This document shows positions 18,146 through 53,553 of a DNA stretch of 64,000 nucleotides, in pieces (the stretch's first letter is position 1; every line of letters begins with the position of its first letter). The DNA is from Thermoplasmata archaeon (GTDB lineage Archaea; Thermoplasmatota; Thermoplasmata; Lutacidiplasmatales; UBA184), in contig JAKACD010000003.1 in assembly GCA_021821785.1 (NCBI GenBank), positions 8,462 to 72,461 of the forward strand. Direction: 5' to 3'. Position numbers and translations under genes: made by a program. The notes beneath the pieces were generated by a model, which was given only the letters and a program-made list of their open reading frames with translations, was not told the DNA's origin and did no database searches.

Positions 18146-20149
18146 ATGGCGCTGCGTCCGATCCGGATGGTAAAGGTCGGCCTCCTCGGCCTGCGCGAGG
18201 ACGAGGAACGGGTCCTGACCATCCTGCACGACCTGCGCGTCGCCCAGGTCGAGCCGCTCACCCCCGCCGCGATGGCCGAGCTCGCCCCCGAGCGGGGCTC
18301 GGAGACCCTGCGGCGGGTCGGGGACGAGACGCTGCGCTTCCGCGGACTGTTGAGCGCGCTCCCCCCGGCGGGCACGGCGGCCCCCCGGCGGTTCGACTCG
18401 CTCGGCGACATCTTCCGGGCGGCCCAGTCCGTCCCGATCGACGCCGAGGTCGGCGAGCTGAAGCGCGAGGACGACCGGCTCCTGACCGAGAAGAAGGCCG
18501 CAACCGACACGGTCGAACTGCTCGAGGCGATGGCGTTCTACCGCGACCGGCTCGACCTCCTCCGGTCCGCGAACTTCCTCAGTTTCTACGGGGAGGCCCC
18601 GACCGAGGGGTTCGAGGCGCTCCGGGCGTCGCTCCCCGCCGAGGCCGACGCGCGCTTCCTCCTCGGGCCGACCGCGGACGAACGGGTCCGCTTCCTCGTC
18701 ATCGCCCGCCCGGCGGGGTCGGAGGCGCTCAGCCGCGCGGCCCAGAGCCGGGGCGTCCGCCTCACCGCGGTCCCCCCGCTCCACGGGACGCCGAACGAGG
18801 AGCTCGTCGAGCTCCGCGCCCGGCTCGACACGATCGCCGAGCGACGGCGCGCGATCGCCGGCCGGCTCCGGGAGATCGCCGAGCAATGGTATCCATTCGT
18901 CGCGGCGGTCGACGAAGCGCTCGAGATCGAGAACCGGAAGGCCGAGGTCCTCGCGAAGCTCGGCGCGAGTCGCGCGACCTTCGCGCTCGAGGCCTGGGTC
19001 CCGGCCCGGGACCTCGAGCGGCTGCGCGCGGTCGTCACCGAGGCGGCGGGGGGCCGGGTCCACTTCTACGAGGTCCCCACCCGGGAAGAGCCGCCGACGA
19101 TGATGAGCAACCCGAGCGGCGTCCGCCGCTTCGAGTTCTTCGTCCGGTTCTACTCCCTCCCGCAGGCGACCGAGTGGGACCCCACGCTCGTCTTCGCGAT
19201 CGCGTTCCCCATCTTCTTCGGCTTCATGCTCGGCGACTGGGGCTACGGCCTCACGATCCTCCTGATCTCGCTCTGGATGATCGCGGGATTCCCGGGCGCG
19301 CGCTACCTCCCGAAGGCCGGGAAGAACTTCGTGAAGATGATCATGGGGCCGCAGGGGATGCAGCAGCTCGCCTACGCGCTCCTGCCCGGCTGCGGGCTCG
19401 CGATCGCGCTCGGGCTCGTCTGGGACGAGTTCTTCGGCATCCACCTCTTCGGGCTCCTGTTCGGCTACACGACGCCGCTCGACCCCGCGAGCAAGGCCGG
19501 CGTCCCGGTGCTCCTCCTGTTCGCCGGTTTCGTCGGGCTCGGGATGGTCGTCCTCGGGTTCGTCTTCGGGGCGCTCAAGGAGTACTTCCACCACCACCCG
19601 CGCGGGGTCGTCGCGAAGTCGGGCGGGATCCTGTTCGCGTTCGGGGTGGCGTTCTTCGGGCTCTCGGTCATCCACAAGCAGACCTCCTTCGGGAACCCGC
19701 TCTTCGACCTCTACCTCGCGCTCCTCCTGGCCGGCCTCGTGCTCCTCGTCTTCGGCGAGGGAGTCCAGATGGGGATGATGGGGCTCATCGAGGTCGTGAG
19801 CCACATTCTCTCCTACACGCGGCTTGTGGGGATCCTGCTCGCGAGCGTGATCCTCGCGCTCGTGATCAACTCGATCGGCAGCGGCCTCGTCTACGGCGGG
19901 ACGGCCCTCGGGATCCTCTTCGGGCTCGTCATCCTCATCGTCGGCCAGTCGTTCAACGTCATCCTCGGGGTCTTCGAACCCGGGATCCAGGGAGCGCGAC
20001 TGATCTTCGTCGAGTACTTCTCGAAGTTCTACAGCGGGAACGGCCGGCCGTTCCGGCCGTTCGGGGCCGCGCGACGGCACACCGTGAGCTCGATCGGCCC
20101 GGACGGCGGGGTCGCGAAGGGGCCGATCCTGCAGGGCCCCGAGAGCTGA
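18146..20149 (+). CDS. atpI: A-type ATP synthase subunit I (membrane a-subunit)
   Basis: 667 aa with a soluble N-terminal half and a polytopic C-terminal half (SHILSYTRLVGILLAS motif). Confidence 0.9.
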   Translation: MALRPIRMVKVGLLGLREDEERVLTILHDLRVAQVEPLTPAAMAELAPERGSETLRRVGDETLRFRGLLSALPPAGTAAPRRFDSLGDIFRAAQSVPIDAEVGELKREDDRLLTEKKAATDTVELLEAMAFYRDRLDLLRSANFLSFYGEAPTEGFEALRASLPAEADARFLLGPTADERVRFLVIARPAGSEALSRAAQSRGVRLTAVPPLHGTPNEELVELRARLDTIAERRRAIAGRLREIAEQWYPFVAAVDEALEIENRKAEVLAKLGASRATFALEAWVPARDLERLRAVVTEAAGGRVHFYEVPTREEPPTMMSNPSGVRRFEFFVRFYSLPQATEWDPTLVFAIAFPIFFGFMLGDWGYGLTILLISLWMIAGFPGARYLPKAGKNFVKMIMGPQGMQQLAYALLPGCGLAIALGLVWDEFFGIHLFGLLFGYTTPLDPASKAGVPVLLLFAGFVGLGMVVLGFVFGALKEYFHHHPRGVVAKSGGILFAFGVAFFGLSVIHKQTSFGNPLFDLYLALLLAGLVLLVFGEGVQMGMMGLIEVVSHILSYTRLVGILLASVILALVINSIGSGLVYGGTALGILFGLVILIVGQSFNVILGVFEPGIQGARLIFVEYFSKFYSGNGRPFRPFGAARRHTVSSIGPDGGVAKGPILQGPES

Positions 20150-20195
20150 CCGGTCGGGACGGGCGCCTCGGCGGGCGCGATCGGCGGGACCGGAT

Positions 20196-49152: not shown

Positions 49153-49457
49153 GCGCGGCGAACGCCGCCGCGGCCAAGAAGCCGGCGATCGCGCTGACGC
49201 CGGGCTCGCACGTCCGATTGCGTTCGGCCGGACCGGAGGATCAGGCGATCGTCTCCGTCGGGATATTCCGCGGTCTCGTCTCGATCGCCGGTGACAGCGC
49301 GCTCGCCATCGAGCTGGACGGCTCCGACGGCGAGCCGAAGGGCCGCATCCGCCTCGTCCCGACCCCGGCGATCCTCACGATCGACATCCTCGAGGCGGCG
49401 AAGGCCGAGGAAGAGAAGCGGGCGGAGACGACGCAGGCGCCCGGCTACTTCCGCTAG
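49149..49457 (+). CDS. hypothetical protein (102 aa)
   Basis: ATG at 49149 forms an ATGA overlap with the upstream regulator stop. The pattern is beta-rich (VSVGIFRGLVSIAGDSALAIELDG...RIRLVPTPAILTIDIL). Confidence 0.45.
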   Translation: MSAANAAAAKKPAIALTPGSHVRLRSAGPEDQAIVSVGIFRGLVSIAGDSALAIELDGSDGEPKGRIRLVPTPAILTIDILEAAKAEEEKRAETTQAPGYFR

Positions 49458-49469
49458 ACCGGGGACGGA

Positions 49470-49573
49470 CGGGCTTGCTGGGAGTTCCGTCGCGGTTCTT
49501 CGGTCCCGCGGTTTCGAACCCAGGTCGTTGGCTTCGAAGGCCAACAGGATAGTCCAGACTACCCCACAAGCCC
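49470..49573 (-). tRNA. tRNA-Arg (anticodon TCG) with a ~29-nt insertion (putative intron) in the T-loop
   Basis: The minus strand reads GGGCTTG TG GGGT AGTCTGGACT ATCC .. TTGGC CTTCGAA GCCAA CGAC CTGGG TTCGAA[ACCGCGGGACCGAAGAACCGCGACGGAAC]T CCCAG CAAGCCC G. The acceptor stem (7 bp), anticodon stem (5 bp) and T stem (5 bp) all pair. The anticodon loop is C-T-TCG-A-A. A TATA-like CCAAATAG lies ~25 nt upstream. Confidence 0.75.
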
Positions 49574-49621
49574 GACCGGGGCCGCGAGGGGGCCCGGTCT
49601 ATTTGGGCGTTCCGCGCCCGG

Positions 49622-52600
49622 TCACGGCATCTCCGAAGCGGCCGGGGCCCCGCCCCGGGGGCGGAATCGGTCGAGGGTCGTCTGCGCGGTCGAGCCCGGG
49701 AAGAGCGTCGCCACCGAGTCGGAGAGGATCTGAATCCGCTGGCGCACATACGGGGTGATTCCCTCGACCTCGCTCAGGCGCTGGGAGAGCGGGAGGTACT
49801 TGCGCACGGACGCTTCGTAGACGCTCGACAGGAGCTCGCCGTCGCACCGGGCGCCCCCTTTCCCGGTGGCCGTGCAGCGACCCGAGAGCGGCGGCCGGCG
49901 GTAGGCCTCGCCGCAGTCCTTGCATCGGAAGCTCTGGGTCGCGTAGCTCTTGAGGTTCCCCATCACGTCGGGCAGGAAGTGCGCGTTGAGCACGAGCGTG
50001 ACCGCCTCGGCCACATCGACCGCGCGGATCTGGGTCGCGAGCAGCACCGACCGCTCGACCATGTCGGTCATCGAGCGCCCGTCGCGGTAGGCGGAGCGGA
50101 CCGGTCCGCCCGCGATCCGCGAGGTGTCGTGGGTGAAGCCGTACTCCGACAGCGCCCGGCCCGAATCGAGCCGGTGCCCGACCAGGTCGAGGAGGGGCTC
50201 GACCTCCTTCGCCGAACGGCCCTCGGCGGCGGCCCGGTAGAGGGCGAGCGCGTGATGGCTCGAGACATCCACGTTGTGTGCCTCCTTGTCGACCTCGGTC
50301 GCGACGAGCCGGGTCGTCAGGACCAGCGGCTTGTCCATGAGCGCGCCCCGACTTTCGGGCAGGAACGACCGGGAGAAATTGAGCAGCGCGTCCAGGAGGA
50401 GCGTCACCGAGTCCTCATCGCCATCGCAGTTCCGCCGCTTCGCGGCGTGGAAGACCGGGGAGGCAAAGCACGCCTCGGCGTCCGTGAACCCGATCAGGCG
50501 GCCGGCGACCCCGCCCGACGTGTGCGGAGCGAGCGCGACCACGATCGCCCCGACGAGCCGATCGGGCCGATCGGCCGAGTAGAACGGGTCGAGGTTGTAG
50601 AAACGCACGAGCTCATCGTCGACGAACTGGGAGAGCCGGGTGAGGTACTCCCCGCACGAACGGGAGACGACCAGGTCCTGGGGGGCGAGCTCGACCAGCT
50701 GCTCGGGGTCGGTGAGCTCGGCCCCCGTCCAATCCCGCTCGTAGCCCAGCCGACGCAGGGTCGCGACGTCCGTCCCGATCTCCGCCGGCCGGAAGTGGGT
50801 GAGCGGAAGGTCCGTGAGGTCGAACCGGGCCGTGCCGTCCTGATAGACCGAGATCCCGTGGACCGCGCGCAGGATCCCCTTCTCGATCGGCTCCGGGACC
50901 TTCCCCGGGGAGGTGAGGCCCTTCACGCCCTTCACGACCGGGACCTTGGCGAGGTGCAGGCGCGAGACCGCGTCGCTCCAGATCCGCGCGATCGGTAGCG
51001 ACTGGCGGCCCACGTCGCCGGTCGGGTTCGTGTGCTGCCCGCAGGGACAGCGCATCCAGACGGTGGTCCGCCCGCAGGCAGGACAGCTGCGGATCCCGAG
51101 GTCGACGTCGGCTCCCTCCCGCATCGTGCGGCGGGCGGCCTCGGGCACCGAGCGGGTCGAACCCCCGGCACTGCCGACGGGAAAGAGCCCGTGAACGTTC
51201 GGTTGCATGCTCCGCTGGTACGCCTTCTCCGGCCGCCCGACCCGTCCCCCGACGCGTGACGGTCCGCGAGGGCGGAGGACGACCCCGGCAAGGCGGTGGA
51301 CGTACCGCAACGGGTCGACGTCGACCGGCTCGAGGGACGCGCGCCGCACGAGACGGTCTCCCTCGGGGTCGAGGCCGAGGCCACCGACGAGCGCCGCGCC
51401 CGGGTCGGGTTCCCCGCGCAGCCGGTTCGGCTCGACCGGGTAGAACAGGAAGCCGAGCCGCTCGAGGGTCTCCCGCCACGCCGGATCGTTGGGCAGTTCG
51501 ACCGAGCCCTCGACCCAGCGGCCCGTGCGCTCGACGAACTCGGCGAGCGCCCGGATCTCGGCGGAGGTAAGGTCGTGCCAGAAGAGCAGCCAGCGAGGAT
51601 GCAGCGGCACCCGATGGGTCTGCGAGAGGGCGACCGCCTCGGCGTACGTGCCCACGGCGAGCCCCACCGCGGGGTCGACCCCGGCCGCCTCGAGCTCGGC
51701 AGCATGCCAGTCGAGGGAGTAGGCGCCCGGGACGAGCGCGCGGTTGTTCTCGAGGAACTCCCCGAACGAGACGAGGATCTCCCCGAGGTCGACGATCCGA
51801 CGCACGCGGCGGCGGAGCGACTCGGCCCGGGGGGTCTCGTGGACCGCGGTGACGGTCCCGTCGTCGAGCTCGACGATCGGCCCTTCGACAGTGTCGCACA
51901 CGCCCATGGCCGTGGCCTTTCCGGGGTACTCGAGCTTCACCTGGGTCCCGATCGCGACGAAGTGCTGGAGGATCACCATCGTCGCGGGGTTCACCGCGCA
52001 CGCCGCGAGCCCGGTCGTGCGGGCCCGGCCGTAGACGAGCCGGAACCCACCGGGGTGGTTCGGATGGGCGAGGACCGGGCGGCCGCCGACCGAGTCCTGA
52101 AGGTACTTCGGGGTCCGGGCCTCCTCTTCGTCGGTCTTGCGGTGACCGAGCTCGGCGAGGAACTCCCATCCGTCGAGGCCGAGCTTGTCGACGATCTTCC
52201 GGATCTTCGCCGCCTTCTGGCAGAGCCCCTCGGCGATGACCAGGCAGGCACCGCCCCGGATCCCGTTCGTCGGGACGCGCGGCAGGTTGCGGAACGCGCT
52301 CACCTCGGCGTCGCCCTCGGTCGACTCGCCCGAGATCGCGACCGGGACGTGCCGAACGACGAGGTCGATCTCCTCGGGCGTCGGGACGTACTGCAGGTGC
52401 TGGTGGTACTTGTACAGAGGAATCTCCTCCTTGTACCGCTCGATCTCGTCCGGCTCGGGGTGGAACGGCTCGAGGCCGAGGTCGCGGCGGACGATGTCGG
52501 CGAGCAGCACGCTGAGCGCCTGCGCGGTCCCGCCGGCGGCTCGAATCGGTCCCGCGTAGTAGAGCTCGATGTATCCTCGACGGTCCCGGCCCTCCCGCAC

Positions 52601-53038
52601 GTGGACCTCGGCGAGCCCCTCGAGCGGAGCCACGAGGATGCCCTCCGTGAGGATCGCGAGCCCGACGCGGAGCGCGGCGTCCAGACGGTCCGCGAGCGCC
52701 GCGCCGCGTCGCGTGTCCTTCGCGAGGCGCCGTGCGATCGTGACCGCGACCTCCTCGCGAGGCATTTCGGCCGCGAGGGCTCGGATCTCCTCCGAAATCC
52801 CCTCGATGCCGAGGTGGGCGAGAAGCTTCTCGACCCGCATCGCCATGTCCTGGGCGCGGGGGATCTCGGGGCGGAGCTCGGGGTCGAGCCCTTCGCGGCG
52901 AGCCCGATCGGCGACCTCGTAGGCGCGGTCGACCGAGGACTCGATCGTGCGAAAATACGATTCCACGGCGGGCGGAGGGCGGGCCCGTCTCATAAGCCTA
53001 GGGCGCGCGACGTGCGCGGCCCGGACGGCTAAGCTCAA
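49622..53038 (-). CDS. polD2: DNA polymerase II (PolD) large subunit DP2
   Basis: 1138 aa, typical DP2 sequence throughout, including the zinc motifs CPACGRTTVWMRCPCG and CKDCGEAYRRPPLSGRC...C. An alternative start is the ATG at 52993. Confidence 0.92.
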   Translation of the reverse strand: MSLAVRAAHVARPRLMRRARPPPAVESYFRTIESSVDRAYEVADRARREGLDPELRPEIPRAQDMAMRVEKLLAHLGIEGISEEIRALAAEMPREEVAVTIARRLAKDTRRGAALADRLDAALRVGLAILTEGILVAPLEGLAEVHVREGRDRRGYIELYYAGPIRAAGGTAQALSVLLADIVRRDLGLEPFHPEPDEIERYKEEIPLYKYHQHLQYVPTPEEIDLVVRHVPVAISGESTEGDAEVSAFRNLPRVPTNGIRGGACLVIAEGLCQKAAKIRKIVDKLGLDGWEFLAELGHRKTDEEEARTPKYLQDSVGGRPVLAHPNHPGGFRLVYGRARTTGLAACAVNPATMVILQHFVAIGTQVKLEYPGKATAMGVCDTVEGPIVELDDGTVTAVHETPRAESLRRRVRRIVDLGEILVSFGEFLENNRALVPGAYSLDWHAAELEAAGVDPAVGLAVGTYAEAVALSQTHRVPLHPRWLLFWHDLTSAEIRALAEFVERTGRWVEGSVELPNDPAWRETLERLGFLFYPVEPNRLRGEPDPGAALVGGLGLDPEGDRLVRRASLEPVDVDPLRYVHRLAGVVLRPRGPSRVGGRVGRPEKAYQRSMQPNVHGLFPVGSAGGSTRSVPEAARRTMREGADVDLGIRSCPACGRTTVWMRCPCGQHTNPTGDVGRQSLPIARIWSDAVSRLHLAKVPVVKGVKGLTSPGKVPEPIEKGILRAVHGISVYQDGTARFDLTDLPLTHFRPAEIGTDVATLRRLGYERDWTGAELTDPEQLVELAPQDLVVSRSCGEYLTRLSQFVDDELVRFYNLDPFYSADRPDRLVGAIVVALAPHTSGGVAGRLIGFTDAEACFASPVFHAAKRRNCDGDEDSVTLLLDALLNFSRSFLPESRGALMDKPLVLTTRLVATEVDKEAHNVDVSSHHALALYRAAAEGRSAKEVEPLLDLVGHRLDSGRALSEYGFTHDTSRIAGGPVRSAYRDGRSMTDMVERSVLLATQIRAVDVAEAVTLVLNAHFLPDVMGNLKSYATQSFRCKDCGEAYRRPPLSGRCTATGKGGARCDGELLSSVYEASVRKYLPLSQRLSEVEGITPYVRQRIQILSDSVATLFPGSTAQTTLDRFRPRGGAPAASEMP

Positions 53039-53062
53039 ATCGGACGGCGGGGTCCAACCTTC

Positions 53063-53114
53063 GGGTGATGAAGTCCACCCTCAACCGCTCCGCCCGGGGC
53101 TGATGACTTCTAGC
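53063..53114 (+). promoter_or_regulatory. fluoride riboswitch (crcB RNA motif)
   Basis: GGGUGAUGAAGUCCACCCUCAACCGCUCCGCCCGGGGCUGAUGACUUCUAGC aligns element by element with the Thermotoga petrophila fluoride aptamer as I recall it (GGGCGAUGAGGCCCGCCCAAACUGCCCUGAAAAGGGCUGAUGGCCUCUACUG). P1 is GGGUG/CACCC, the pseudoknot GAAGUC/GACUUC and P3 GCUCC-GCCC-GGGGC, and the conserved GAUG, AAC and CUGAUG are present. It lies 50 nt upstream of crcB. Confidence 0.85.
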
Positions 53115-53163
53115 ACGCGCCGGGCGCCGCCGGGGGGCGTATCCCCGGGAACGGAGGAGAGCG

Positions 53164-53553
53164 GTGGACATCTCGCAAGCCCGCCTGGTGGCCCTGGTCG
53201 CCGCGGGGGGAGCCATCGGGTCGGTGCTGCGCTACGGCGTGACCGGAGTGCTGACCACCCGGGACTTCCCCTGGGGCACCTTCGTGGTCAACTTCACCGG
53301 GACGTTCCTCCTGGCGCTGCTGTTCTTCGCCTTCCTGCAGGGAGGTTCGCTCCCGCCGGGGCTGCGGACATTCCTGTTCATCGGCATCTTCGGCGGCTAT
53401 ACCACCTTCTCGACCTTCGGCCTCGAGACGATCTCCCTGTACGCAGAAGGGCAGCCGCTCCTCGCCGGTGCCAACATTCTCTTGAACGCCGGGCTCTGCT
53501 TGGTCGGAGCCTATCTGGGCCGGGCCGCCGGCCTCGCTGTCGGGATTCGGTGA
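53164..53553 (+). CDS. crcB: fluoride ion channel CrcB/FluC
   Basis: 129 aa, four TM, with GAIGSVLRY, WGTFVVNFTG and GGYTTFSTF. GTG start preceded by GGAGGAG. Confidence 0.9.
   Translation: MDISQARLVALVAAGGAIGSVLRYGVTGVLTTRDFPWGTFVVNFTGTFLLALLFFAFLQGGSLPPGLRTFLFIGIFGGYTTFSTFGLETISLYAEGQPLLAGANILLNAGLCLVGAYLGRAAGLAVGIR

What the first reader, a model, noticed from the sequence alone, without database searches (positions are those of the whole stretch)
49470..49573. tRNA-Arg(TCG) with a ~29-nt insertion in the T-loop (non-canonical intron position)
The acceptor stem (GGGCTTG/CAAGCCC), the anticodon arm (TTGGC-CTTCGAA-GCCAA) and the T stem (CTGGG/CCCAG) all pair. However, 36 nt separate the two T-stem strands instead of 7: TTCGAA[ACCGCGGGACCGAAGAACCGCGACGGAAC]T (insert ~49484-49512). 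The insert contains its own hairpin (CGCGG-gaccgaagaa-CCGCG), and GTTC...GAAC can extend the T stem. This is as expected for an intron processed by the archaeal splicing endonuclease at a relaxed bulge-helix-bulge. Introns at position 59/60 or nearby are known mainly from a few archaeal lineages. The exact splice junction cannot be fixed by eye, because 59/60 and 60/61 both give a 7-nt TTCGAAN loop. The D-arm register is also ambiguous by one nucleotide.
Basis: partly seen in the sequence, partly recalled or inferred. Interest (0 to 1): 0.6.

Follow-up and report, generated by a model that had tools for sequence, protein, structure and literature searches.

The report
T-loop intron in archaeal arginine tRNA
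This is a real arginine tRNA gene of a soil archaeon (class Thermoplasmata), split in its T-loop by a 29-base intron shaped for the standard archaeal splicing enzyme; the intron type is known, but it is unusually common in this group, which reviews say lacks such introns.

Summary
The minus strand at 49573..49470 encodes tRNA-Arg(UCG), interrupted by 29 nt (window 49484-49512).

- **Splice motif.** The T-arm folds, as its minimum-energy structure, into a near-canonical bulge-helix-bulge (BHB). The T-stem is followed by the bulge AC|U, the 4-bp helix U54UCG57:CGGA, the bulge AA|A, and an inner hairpin.
- **Junction.** This register places the intron at 59/60. Excision gives a canonical 75-nt tRNA with T-loop UUCGAAU, as in intronless orthologues.
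- **Conservation.** 73 distinct orthologous intron-bearing sequences keep the motif. 96% of cells are paired, all six inner-helix pairs covary, and 0 of 500 shuffles reach the observed score. RNAalifold returns the same motif unprompted.
- **Expression signals.** A conserved promoter element lies 26-40 nt upstream of the mature 5' end.
- **Enzymes.** The genome encodes an ordinary two-repeat (alpha'2-type) splicing endonuclease without an extra loop. It also encodes the ligase RtcB.
- **Wider pattern.** At least 10 other tRNA genes of this genome carry an insert at the same site. Inspected model hits in eight other Thermoplasmata families are the same kind of intron, often beside a 37/38 intron.

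Introns at 59/60 are already known (ARMAN-2, Thermoproteales), so this locus is a new member of a known kind. The lineage-wide load in an alpha'2-endonuclease group runs against statements in reviews.

The parts
49470..49573 (-). tRNA-Arg(UCG) gene, 104 nt including discriminator G; no encoded CCA
49513..49573 (-). 5' exon (tRNA positions 1-59)
49484..49512 (-). 29-nt intron ACCGCGGGACCGAAGAACCGCGACGGAAC, inserted at 59/60
49470..49483 (-). 3' exon (positions 60-73)
49535..49537 (-). anticodon UCG
49515..49518 (-). 5' strand of the BHB central helix (U54 U55 C56 G57 of the T-loop)
49486..49489 (-). 3' strand of the BHB central helix (CGGA, near the 3' end of the intron)
49512..49514 (-). 5' bulge A58 A59 | A, with the predicted 5' cut after A59
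   Evidence: cut position taken from the established BHB rule
49483..49485 (-). 3' bulge A C | U60, with the predicted 3' cut before U60
49490..49511 (-). inner helix h' plus loop: C.A mismatch, CGCGG/CCGCG (5 bp), 10-nt loop
49599..49613 (-). promoter-like element GGAACGCCCAAATAG (BRE-like plus TATA-like), 26-40 nt upstream of the mature 5' end; the motif is recognisable in most of the ~77 orthologous upstream regions printed
49622..53038 (-). context: DNA polymerase II large subunit (PolD DP2) directly upstream; this synteny is kept in relatives

Best explanation
The locus is the genome's only tRNA-Arg(UCG) gene. It is transcribed from its own promoter just after polD, as a pre-tRNA carrying a 29-nt intron between positions 59 and 60.

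In the precursor the T-loop cannot form. Instead U54-G57 pair with CGGA near the 3' end of the intron. The T-stem serves as the outer helix and an intron hairpin as the inner helix. Two 3-nt bulges (AA|A and AC|U) sit four base pairs apart, which is the bulge-helix-bulge motif.

The genome's homodimeric (alpha'2-type) splicing endonuclease EndA cuts in both bulges. RtcB joins the exons to give a 75-nt tRNA with T-loop UUCGAAU, and CCA is added afterwards.

Shown here: the sequence, the fold, the covariation, and the presence of both enzymes. Inferred: the cleavage, the ligation and the order of processing steps.
For: - The BHB structure is the minimum-energy fold of the T-arm.
- RNAalifold on 24 orthologues returns the same structure without any constraint.
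- In 56 distinct anchored sequences, 96.3% of cells pair, all 6 inner-helix pairs show changes on both sides, and 0 of 500 shuffles reach the observed score. Slid controls give 34-51% paired.
- The central helix is 4/4 bp in 70 of 73 distinct introns, while intron length varies from 11 to 35 nt.
- Excision gives a canonical tRNA. Intronless orthologues (L052, L107, L109) have T-loop TTCGAAT.
- No second tRNA-Arg(UCG) gene was found in the assembly, and polD alone uses 6 CGA codons.
- A promoter element is conserved upstream.
- EndA is a single 354-aa protein with two repeats. Tyr, His and Lys are conserved in the C-terminal repeat.
- RtcB is present.
- Ten more tRNA genes of the genome have a 30-34-nt insert at the same site.
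Against: The window's copy has a C.A mismatch at the first inner-helix pair, so the 5' bulge can also be read as a 4x1 internal loop. The unspliced locus scores just under the Rfam tRNA threshold. tRNAscan-SE was not available, so I could not run a standard predictor that handles such introns.
Confidence: 0.93

Rival explanations
1. The 29 nt are not removed. The mature tRNA keeps an extra hairpin that projects from the T-loop at the variable positions 59/60.
For: Positions 59/60 are the least constrained positions of the T-loop (established tRNA structure knowledge). The insert forms a self-contained hairpin.
Against: The conserved features are exactly those the endonuclease needs and a retained arm would not need: the CGRA tract pairing with U54-G57, and the two 3-nt bulges four base pairs apart. 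That pairing competes with formation of the T-loop itself. Insert length and sequence drift freely (11-35 nt), and some orthologues lack it.
Confidence: 0.03
2. The locus is a disrupted pseudogene or a remnant of an insertion event.
For: Standard tools do not call it correctly.
Against: All stems are intact. It is the only UCG isoacceptor found. It is conserved with its promoter and synteny in about 70 species. Covariation maintains the motif.
Confidence: 0.02
3. The intron is spliced, but by an endonuclease with broader specificity than the classical alpha'2 enzymes, because the lineage also carries imperfect motifs.
For: Five of the six tRNAs with A57 in this genome place G or A opposite A57, giving a 3/4-bp central helix. 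The tRNA-Asn insert has no recognisable central helix. The sister family has 11-13-nt mini-introns with little or no inner helix.
Against: This locus itself needs no relaxed specificity. The catalytic repeat aligns end to end with the M. jannaschii enzyme without an inserted loop. Specificity cannot be read from sequence.
Confidence: 0.3

Closest known systems
Non-canonical 59/60 introns of ARMAN-2 (Ca. Micrarchaeum acidiphilum): pre-tRNA-Cys(GCA) and pre-tRNA-Pro(GGG) (PMC3239211)
   Same: Same insertion site in the T-loop. The T-arm supplies part of the BHB. The tRNA-Pro example is described as a strict hBHBh' motif.
   Different: ARMAN-2 uses a three-unit epsilon2 endonuclease with a specific loop and broad specificity, and its tRNA-Cys intron is a relaxed hBH. 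Here the enzyme is an ordinary alpha'2 type and the motif is near-strict.
Multiple and non-canonical tRNA introns of Thermoproteales and other TACK archaea (Marck & Grosjean 2003 and Sugahara 2008, as cited in PMC4090602, PMC4033280, PMC8450103)
   Same: Protein-spliced BHB introns at positions other than 37/38, including the T-loop. Many tRNA genes per genome are affected.
   Different: Those lineages have (alpha-beta)2 endonucleases with the Crenarchaea-specific loop. Reviews state that Euryarchaeota with alpha4/alpha'2 enzymes have one intron, at the canonical position only (PMC4090602), and that Korarchaeum is the only alpha2 organism with non-canonical introns (PMC4033280).
Canonical archaeal tRNA intron at 37/38 with an hBHBh' motif
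   Same: Same motif geometry, the same predicted enzymes (EndA, RtcB) and the same cut rule.
   Different: The central helix is built from the T-loop (U54-G57), not the anticodon loop. The tRNA elbow therefore cannot form before splicing.

Membership tests
Archaeal BHB (EndA-spliced) tRNA intron | Two 3-nt bulges on opposite strands, separated by a 4-bp helix | tested here: met
   Minimum-energy fold of the T-arm; RNAalifold consensus; central helix 4/4 bp in 70 of 73 orthologues
Archaeal BHB (EndA-spliced) tRNA intron | Flanking helices h and h' of at least 2 bp | tested here: met
   The outer helix is the 5-bp T-stem. The inner helix is 5 bp after one C.A mismatch, and 6-8 bp directly stacked in most relatives
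Archaeal BHB (EndA-spliced) tRNA intron | Excision at the bulge positions restores a canonical tRNA | tested here: met
   A 75-nt tRNA-Arg(tcg) is called by ARAGORN after excision. The resulting T-loop UUCGAAU equals that of intronless orthologues
Archaeal BHB (EndA-spliced) tRNA intron | Compensatory changes keep the motif across species | tested here: met
   96.3% paired, 95 cells with changes on both sides, 0 of 500 shuffles reach this. One search agrees
Archaeal BHB (EndA-spliced) tRNA intron | The genome encodes the splicing endonuclease and the RtcB ligase | tested here: met
   EndA at C98:~19130-20193; RtcB at C62:4584-5888, 574 bits
Archaeal BHB (EndA-spliced) tRNA intron | The spliced product or excised intron is seen in RNA | not testable with these tools
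Relaxed BHB (hBH / HBh' / BHL) intron needing a broad-specificity endonuclease | One bulge or one flanking helix is missing | tested here: not met
   Both bulges and both flanking helices are present at this locus
alpha'2-type (homodimeric) EndA | One polypeptide with two tandem EndA repeats, catalytic Tyr/His/Lys only in the C-terminal repeat, and no separate beta-subunit gene | tested here: met
   Two PF01974 hits lie in one open frame and nowhere else in the genome. The protein aligns over residues 66-336 with A. fulgidus 1R0V/2GJW. KYGAHF, NAHARYL and VRKEF match the catalytic Tyr, His and Lys of M. jannaschii 1A79
EndA with a Crenarchaea- or ARMAN-type specific loop | An inserted lysine-bearing loop in the catalytic unit | tested here: inconclusive
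   The catalytic repeat aligns 1-168 with 1A79 residues 4-171 and shows no sizeable insertion. The A. pernix alpha alignment starts only after its loop region. No structural comparison was made

The most novel reading that the evidence does not exclude
The 59/60 T-loop intron is a class-wide feature of Thermoplasmata, not an oddity of one gene. The supporting observations are:
- at least 11 of about 40 detected tRNA genes in this genome carry an insert at the site;
- the model hit 87 of 201 sampled genomes, and 20 hits inspected in eight other families were all such introns;
- some of those tRNAs also carry a 37/38 or a D-loop intron.

All of this is served by an ordinary-looking alpha'2 endonuclease. 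If that enzyme also processes the imperfect motifs seen here (A57.G/A central helices, mini-introns without an inner helix, the tRNA-Asn insert), then the accepted link between endonuclease architecture or specific loops and intron diversity does not hold for this class.
Probability: 0.35. Interest if true: 0.6.

Novelty: new member of a known kind. Interest (0 to 1): 0.45.

Why it matters
For annotation: ARAGORN and the general Rfam tRNA model miss or mis-call this gene and at least ten others in the genome. Assemblies of this clade will therefore seem to lack isoacceptors they in fact have.

For biology: reviews tie non-canonical and multiple tRNA introns to heteromeric or loop-bearing endonucleases, and describe Euryarchaeota with alpha'2 enzymes as having only 37/38 introns. 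A euryarchaeal class with many T-loop introns is a natural test of that co-evolution model.

It also raises a question about order of events. Because the T-loop is tied up in the splice motif, the tRNA elbow cannot form before splicing. Splicing may therefore have to precede the steps that read the elbow, such as end-processing and T-loop modification.

Tried and rejected
- ARAGORN with introns allowed gave mostly false calls with introns of hundreds of nucleotides. It cannot place a T-loop intron.
- The whole-precursor minimum-energy fold mispairs the anticodon arm with the T-arm. Only the constrained fold or the T-arm alone shows the motif.
- A fuzzy-regex search timed out and was replaced by blastn-short.
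- My strict genome-wide BHB scan followed by ARAGORN gave many spurious 'introns' in intact tRNAs (Cys, Lys, Thr, Met). These were discarded by inspection.
- The weak Rfam hits proV, mir-207 and drz-agam-1 at the locus are far below threshold, so I treat them as chance.
- In whole-genome mode, model R1 recovers only 4-6 of the 11 known cases because only the top first-look candidates are scored. Counts are therefore lower bounds.
- I could not settle the BHB registers for the probable D-loop introns of tRNA-Arg(GCG) and initiator tRNA-Met, or for the tRNA-Asn T-loop insert.
- I did not test whether the T-loop introns of different tRNAs are copies of one another (transposition). The introns are short, GC-rich hairpins.

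Full report
**What is there.** The window is about 71% G+C. It carries archaeal genes, among them the DNA polymerase II large subunit at 49622-53038 on the minus strand. Relatives found through that protein are all named Thermoplasmata or Methanobacteriota metagenome-assembled genomes, many from soil, including the AcS/SubAcS acid-soil isolates.

Directly downstream of polD, the minus strand 49573->49470 reads as tRNA-Arg(UCG). It has an acceptor stem GGGCTTG/CAAGCCC, a D-arm (G10-U25, G11-C24, G12-C23, U13.U22, with U8, A14, G18G19, A21 and G26 in place), an anticodon arm TTGGC-CTTCGAA-GCCAA, a 4-nt variable region, and a T-stem CTGGG/CCCAG. Thirty-six nucleotides, not seven, lie between the T-stem strands.

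ARAGORN mis-calls the locus as 49499-49575. The Rfam tRNA model gives 28.6 bits, just below its 29-bit threshold. Removing 29 nt gives a sequence that ARAGORN calls a standard 75-nt tRNA-Arg(tcg).

**The splice motif and the junction.** Folded alone, the T-arm has as its minimum-energy structure (-16.0 kcal/mol) the following elements:
- the T-stem (5 bp);
- a 3-nt bulge A-C-U on the 3' side;
- a 4-bp helix U54-A, U55-G, C56-G, G57-C;
- A58-A59-A on the 5' side;
- a C.A mismatch, a 5-bp helix CGCGG/CCGCG, and a 10-nt loop.

This is the archaeal bulge-helix-bulge geometry. The established rule is that each 3-nt bulge is cut after its second nucleotide. I derived this rule from the canonical 37/38 case and from my own knowledge of the BHB literature. 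Applied here, it puts the intron at window 49484-49512, between positions 59 and 60, and gives the mature T-loop UUCGAAU. Intronless orthologues (L052, L107, L109) have exactly TTCGAAT. That argues against the 60/61 alternative, which would give TTCGAAA.

**Comparative evidence.** The interrupted gene was found downstream of polD in named relatives and in 23 of 24 same-genus genomes (one further genome matched only partially). Together these give 73 distinct intron-bearing sequences.
- Intron length ranges from 23 to 35 nt in the main clade.
- The central helix is 4/4 bp in 70 of the 73.
- Most relatives have T where the window has C, which makes the inner helix stack perfectly on the central helix. 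The consensus is therefore a strict hBHBh' motif.

On an anchored alignment of 56 distinct sequences, 96.3% of cells pair, against 84% in shuffles and 34-51% when partners are slid. All six inner-helix pairs show changes on both sides, and 0 of 500 shuffles reach the observed covariation. RNAalifold, run on 24 full precursors with no structure supplied, returns the same T-stem, bulge, 4-bp helix, bulge and inner helix.

A sister family (L110, L112) has an 11-13-nt intron at the same site plus a canonical 37/38 intron. Genomes of other orders in the class (L107-L109) have no intron in this tRNA.

**Is the gene used?** No second tRNA-Arg(UCG) gene is found in the 91%-complete assembly, and polD alone contains six CGA codons. 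An A/T-rich element, GGAACGNCCAAATA(G/C), stands out in an otherwise GC-rich spacer 26-40 nt upstream of the mature 5' end. It is recognisable in most of the ~77 orthologous upstream regions printed (window 49599-49613). Its position fits an archaeal BRE/TATA promoter; that reading is an inference.

**Enzymes.** The genome has one splicing-endonuclease gene (C98, about 354 aa), with two PF01974 catalytic-type domains in a single open frame and no other hit. It aligns over most of its length with the A. fulgidus alpha'2 enzyme (1R0V/2GJW). Its C-terminal repeat aligns end to end with the M. jannaschii enzyme (1A79), with the catalytic Tyr, His and Lys conserved and no sizeable insertion. It therefore looks like a classical narrow-specificity alpha'2 EndA, which matches a near-strict motif. 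RtcB is present.

**Mechanism.** The steps are transcription, folding of the T-arm into the BHB, cleavage by the EndA dimer in both bulges, exon ligation by RtcB, and CCA addition (the gene encodes none). The fold, the covariation and the enzymes are shown here. Cleavage, ligation and their timing are inferred. Because U54-G57 are held in the central helix, the T-loop and the D/T elbow cannot form before splicing. This suggests that splicing precedes elbow-dependent steps (inference).

**Wider context.** Almost every weak tRNA hit in the genome is explained by the same kind of intron. A T-loop-directed scan, followed by splicing and ARAGORN, finds 30-34-nt inserts at 59/60 in ten more tRNAs:
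- Asp(GUC), Ala(GGC), Arg(UCU), Gly(UCC), Gln(CUG), His(GUG), Asn(GUU);
- Ser(CGA), Ser(GGA), Ser(GCU).

In five of the six tRNAs with A57, that base faces G or A, so the central helix has 3/4 bp. The Asn insert has no recognisable central helix.

A covariance model of the T-arm plus BHB hits 87 of 201 sampled genomes of the class. This is a lower bound, because only the top candidates are scored. I inspected 20 hits from eight other families, and all are real 59/60 introns:
- tRNA-Arg(UCU) in five genomes of family f8.
- Arg(UCU), Arg(CCG), Lys(UUU), Leu(UAA) and a Ser tRNA in the other seven families.
- Nine of the 20 also carry a 37/38 intron, and one carries a D-loop intron.

**Comparison with what is known.** T-loop introns, including the 59/60 site, are documented in ARMAN-2 (PMC3239211) and, according to reviews, in Crenarchaeota (PMC6379350, PMC4090602). 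This locus is therefore a new member of a known kind.

The reviews I could read do not describe it in Thermoplasmata. One states that Euryarchaeota with alpha4/alpha'2 enzymes have only one intron, at the canonical position (PMC4090602). Another states that Korarchaeum is the only alpha2 organism with non-canonical introns (PMC4033280). I found no paper on T-loop introns in Thermoplasmata or Methanomassiliicoccales. However, GtRNAdb and tRNAscan-SE 2.0 output could not be consulted and may already list them.

Earlier AI notes from this scan report the same pattern in other Thermoplasmata genomes. They agree with this report but are not independent evidence.

**Limits.** No tRNAscan-SE run was possible. 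Endonuclease specificity cannot be read from sequence.

Noticed in passing
own genome: C23:33901-33933, C31:5002-5034, C33:13863-13893, C33:22064-22095, C36:150-179, C39:13996-14028, C44:4582-4612, C75:5713-5746, C92:8106-8137, C97:11814-11845: Ten further tRNA genes carry a 30-34-nt insert at T-loop position 59/60: Asp GUC, Ser CGA, Ala GGC, Arg UCU, Gly UCC, Ser GGA, Ser GCU, Gln CUG, Asn GUU and His GUG. Most have a BHB. Standard tRNA models score them below threshold.
   Followed up: partly
own genome: Ser CGA, Ala GGC, Arg UCU, Ser GGA, Ser GCU; also L149: In five of the six tRNAs with A57 (T-loop UUCAAAU), A57 faces G or A, not U, in the BHB central helix (3/4 bp). The same is seen in another family (L149), so it looks tolerated or selected.
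   Followed up: no
own genome C92:8106-8137 (tRNA-Asn GUU): A 32-nt T-loop insert has a good internal hairpin but no recognisable 4-bp central helix (UUCG against CCCA). The splice register is unresolved.
   Followed up: partly
own genome C53:~553-660 (tRNA-Arg GCG) and C36:39371-39470 (initiator-type tRNA-Met CAU): Both have probable D-loop introns of about 28-32 nt. The Met case reads CAGG AA|A ... CCTG AA|A. A similar D-loop insert is seen in tRNA-Arg(CCG) of another family (L147).
   Followed up: partly
L135-L138, L148, L149, L151, L152, L154, L110, L112: tRNA genes in other Thermoplasmata families carry two introns (37/38 plus 59/60). L140-L144 show single 59/60 introns in tRNA-Arg(UCU) of Methanomethylophilaceae-like genomes; one contig length equals the published Ca. 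M. alvus genome size.
   Followed up: partly
window 49599-49613 (minus strand): A promoter-like element GGAACGNCCAAATA(G/C) is recognisable in most of the ~77 orthologous upstream regions printed, in the short spacer between the polD stop codon and the tRNA.
   Followed up: partly
window 53055-53119 (+) and 53164-53553 (+): A fluoride riboswitch (Rfam RF01734, 39.7 bits) lies directly upstream of a 129-aa ORF that looks like CrcB/FluC.
   Followed up: no
own genome C26:19143-19219: tRNA-Pro(CGG) has an unusual T-loop, UCCAAAU (C where U55 is expected). The Rfam tRNA search of the genome does not list it.
   Followed up: no
window 49457-49470: A convergent ORF ending in ...PGYFR* stops 13 nt from the tRNA 3' end. 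Its terminal sequence (CTAGCGGAAGTAGCC on the tRNA strand) recurs downstream of the tRNA in many relatives.
   Followed up: no
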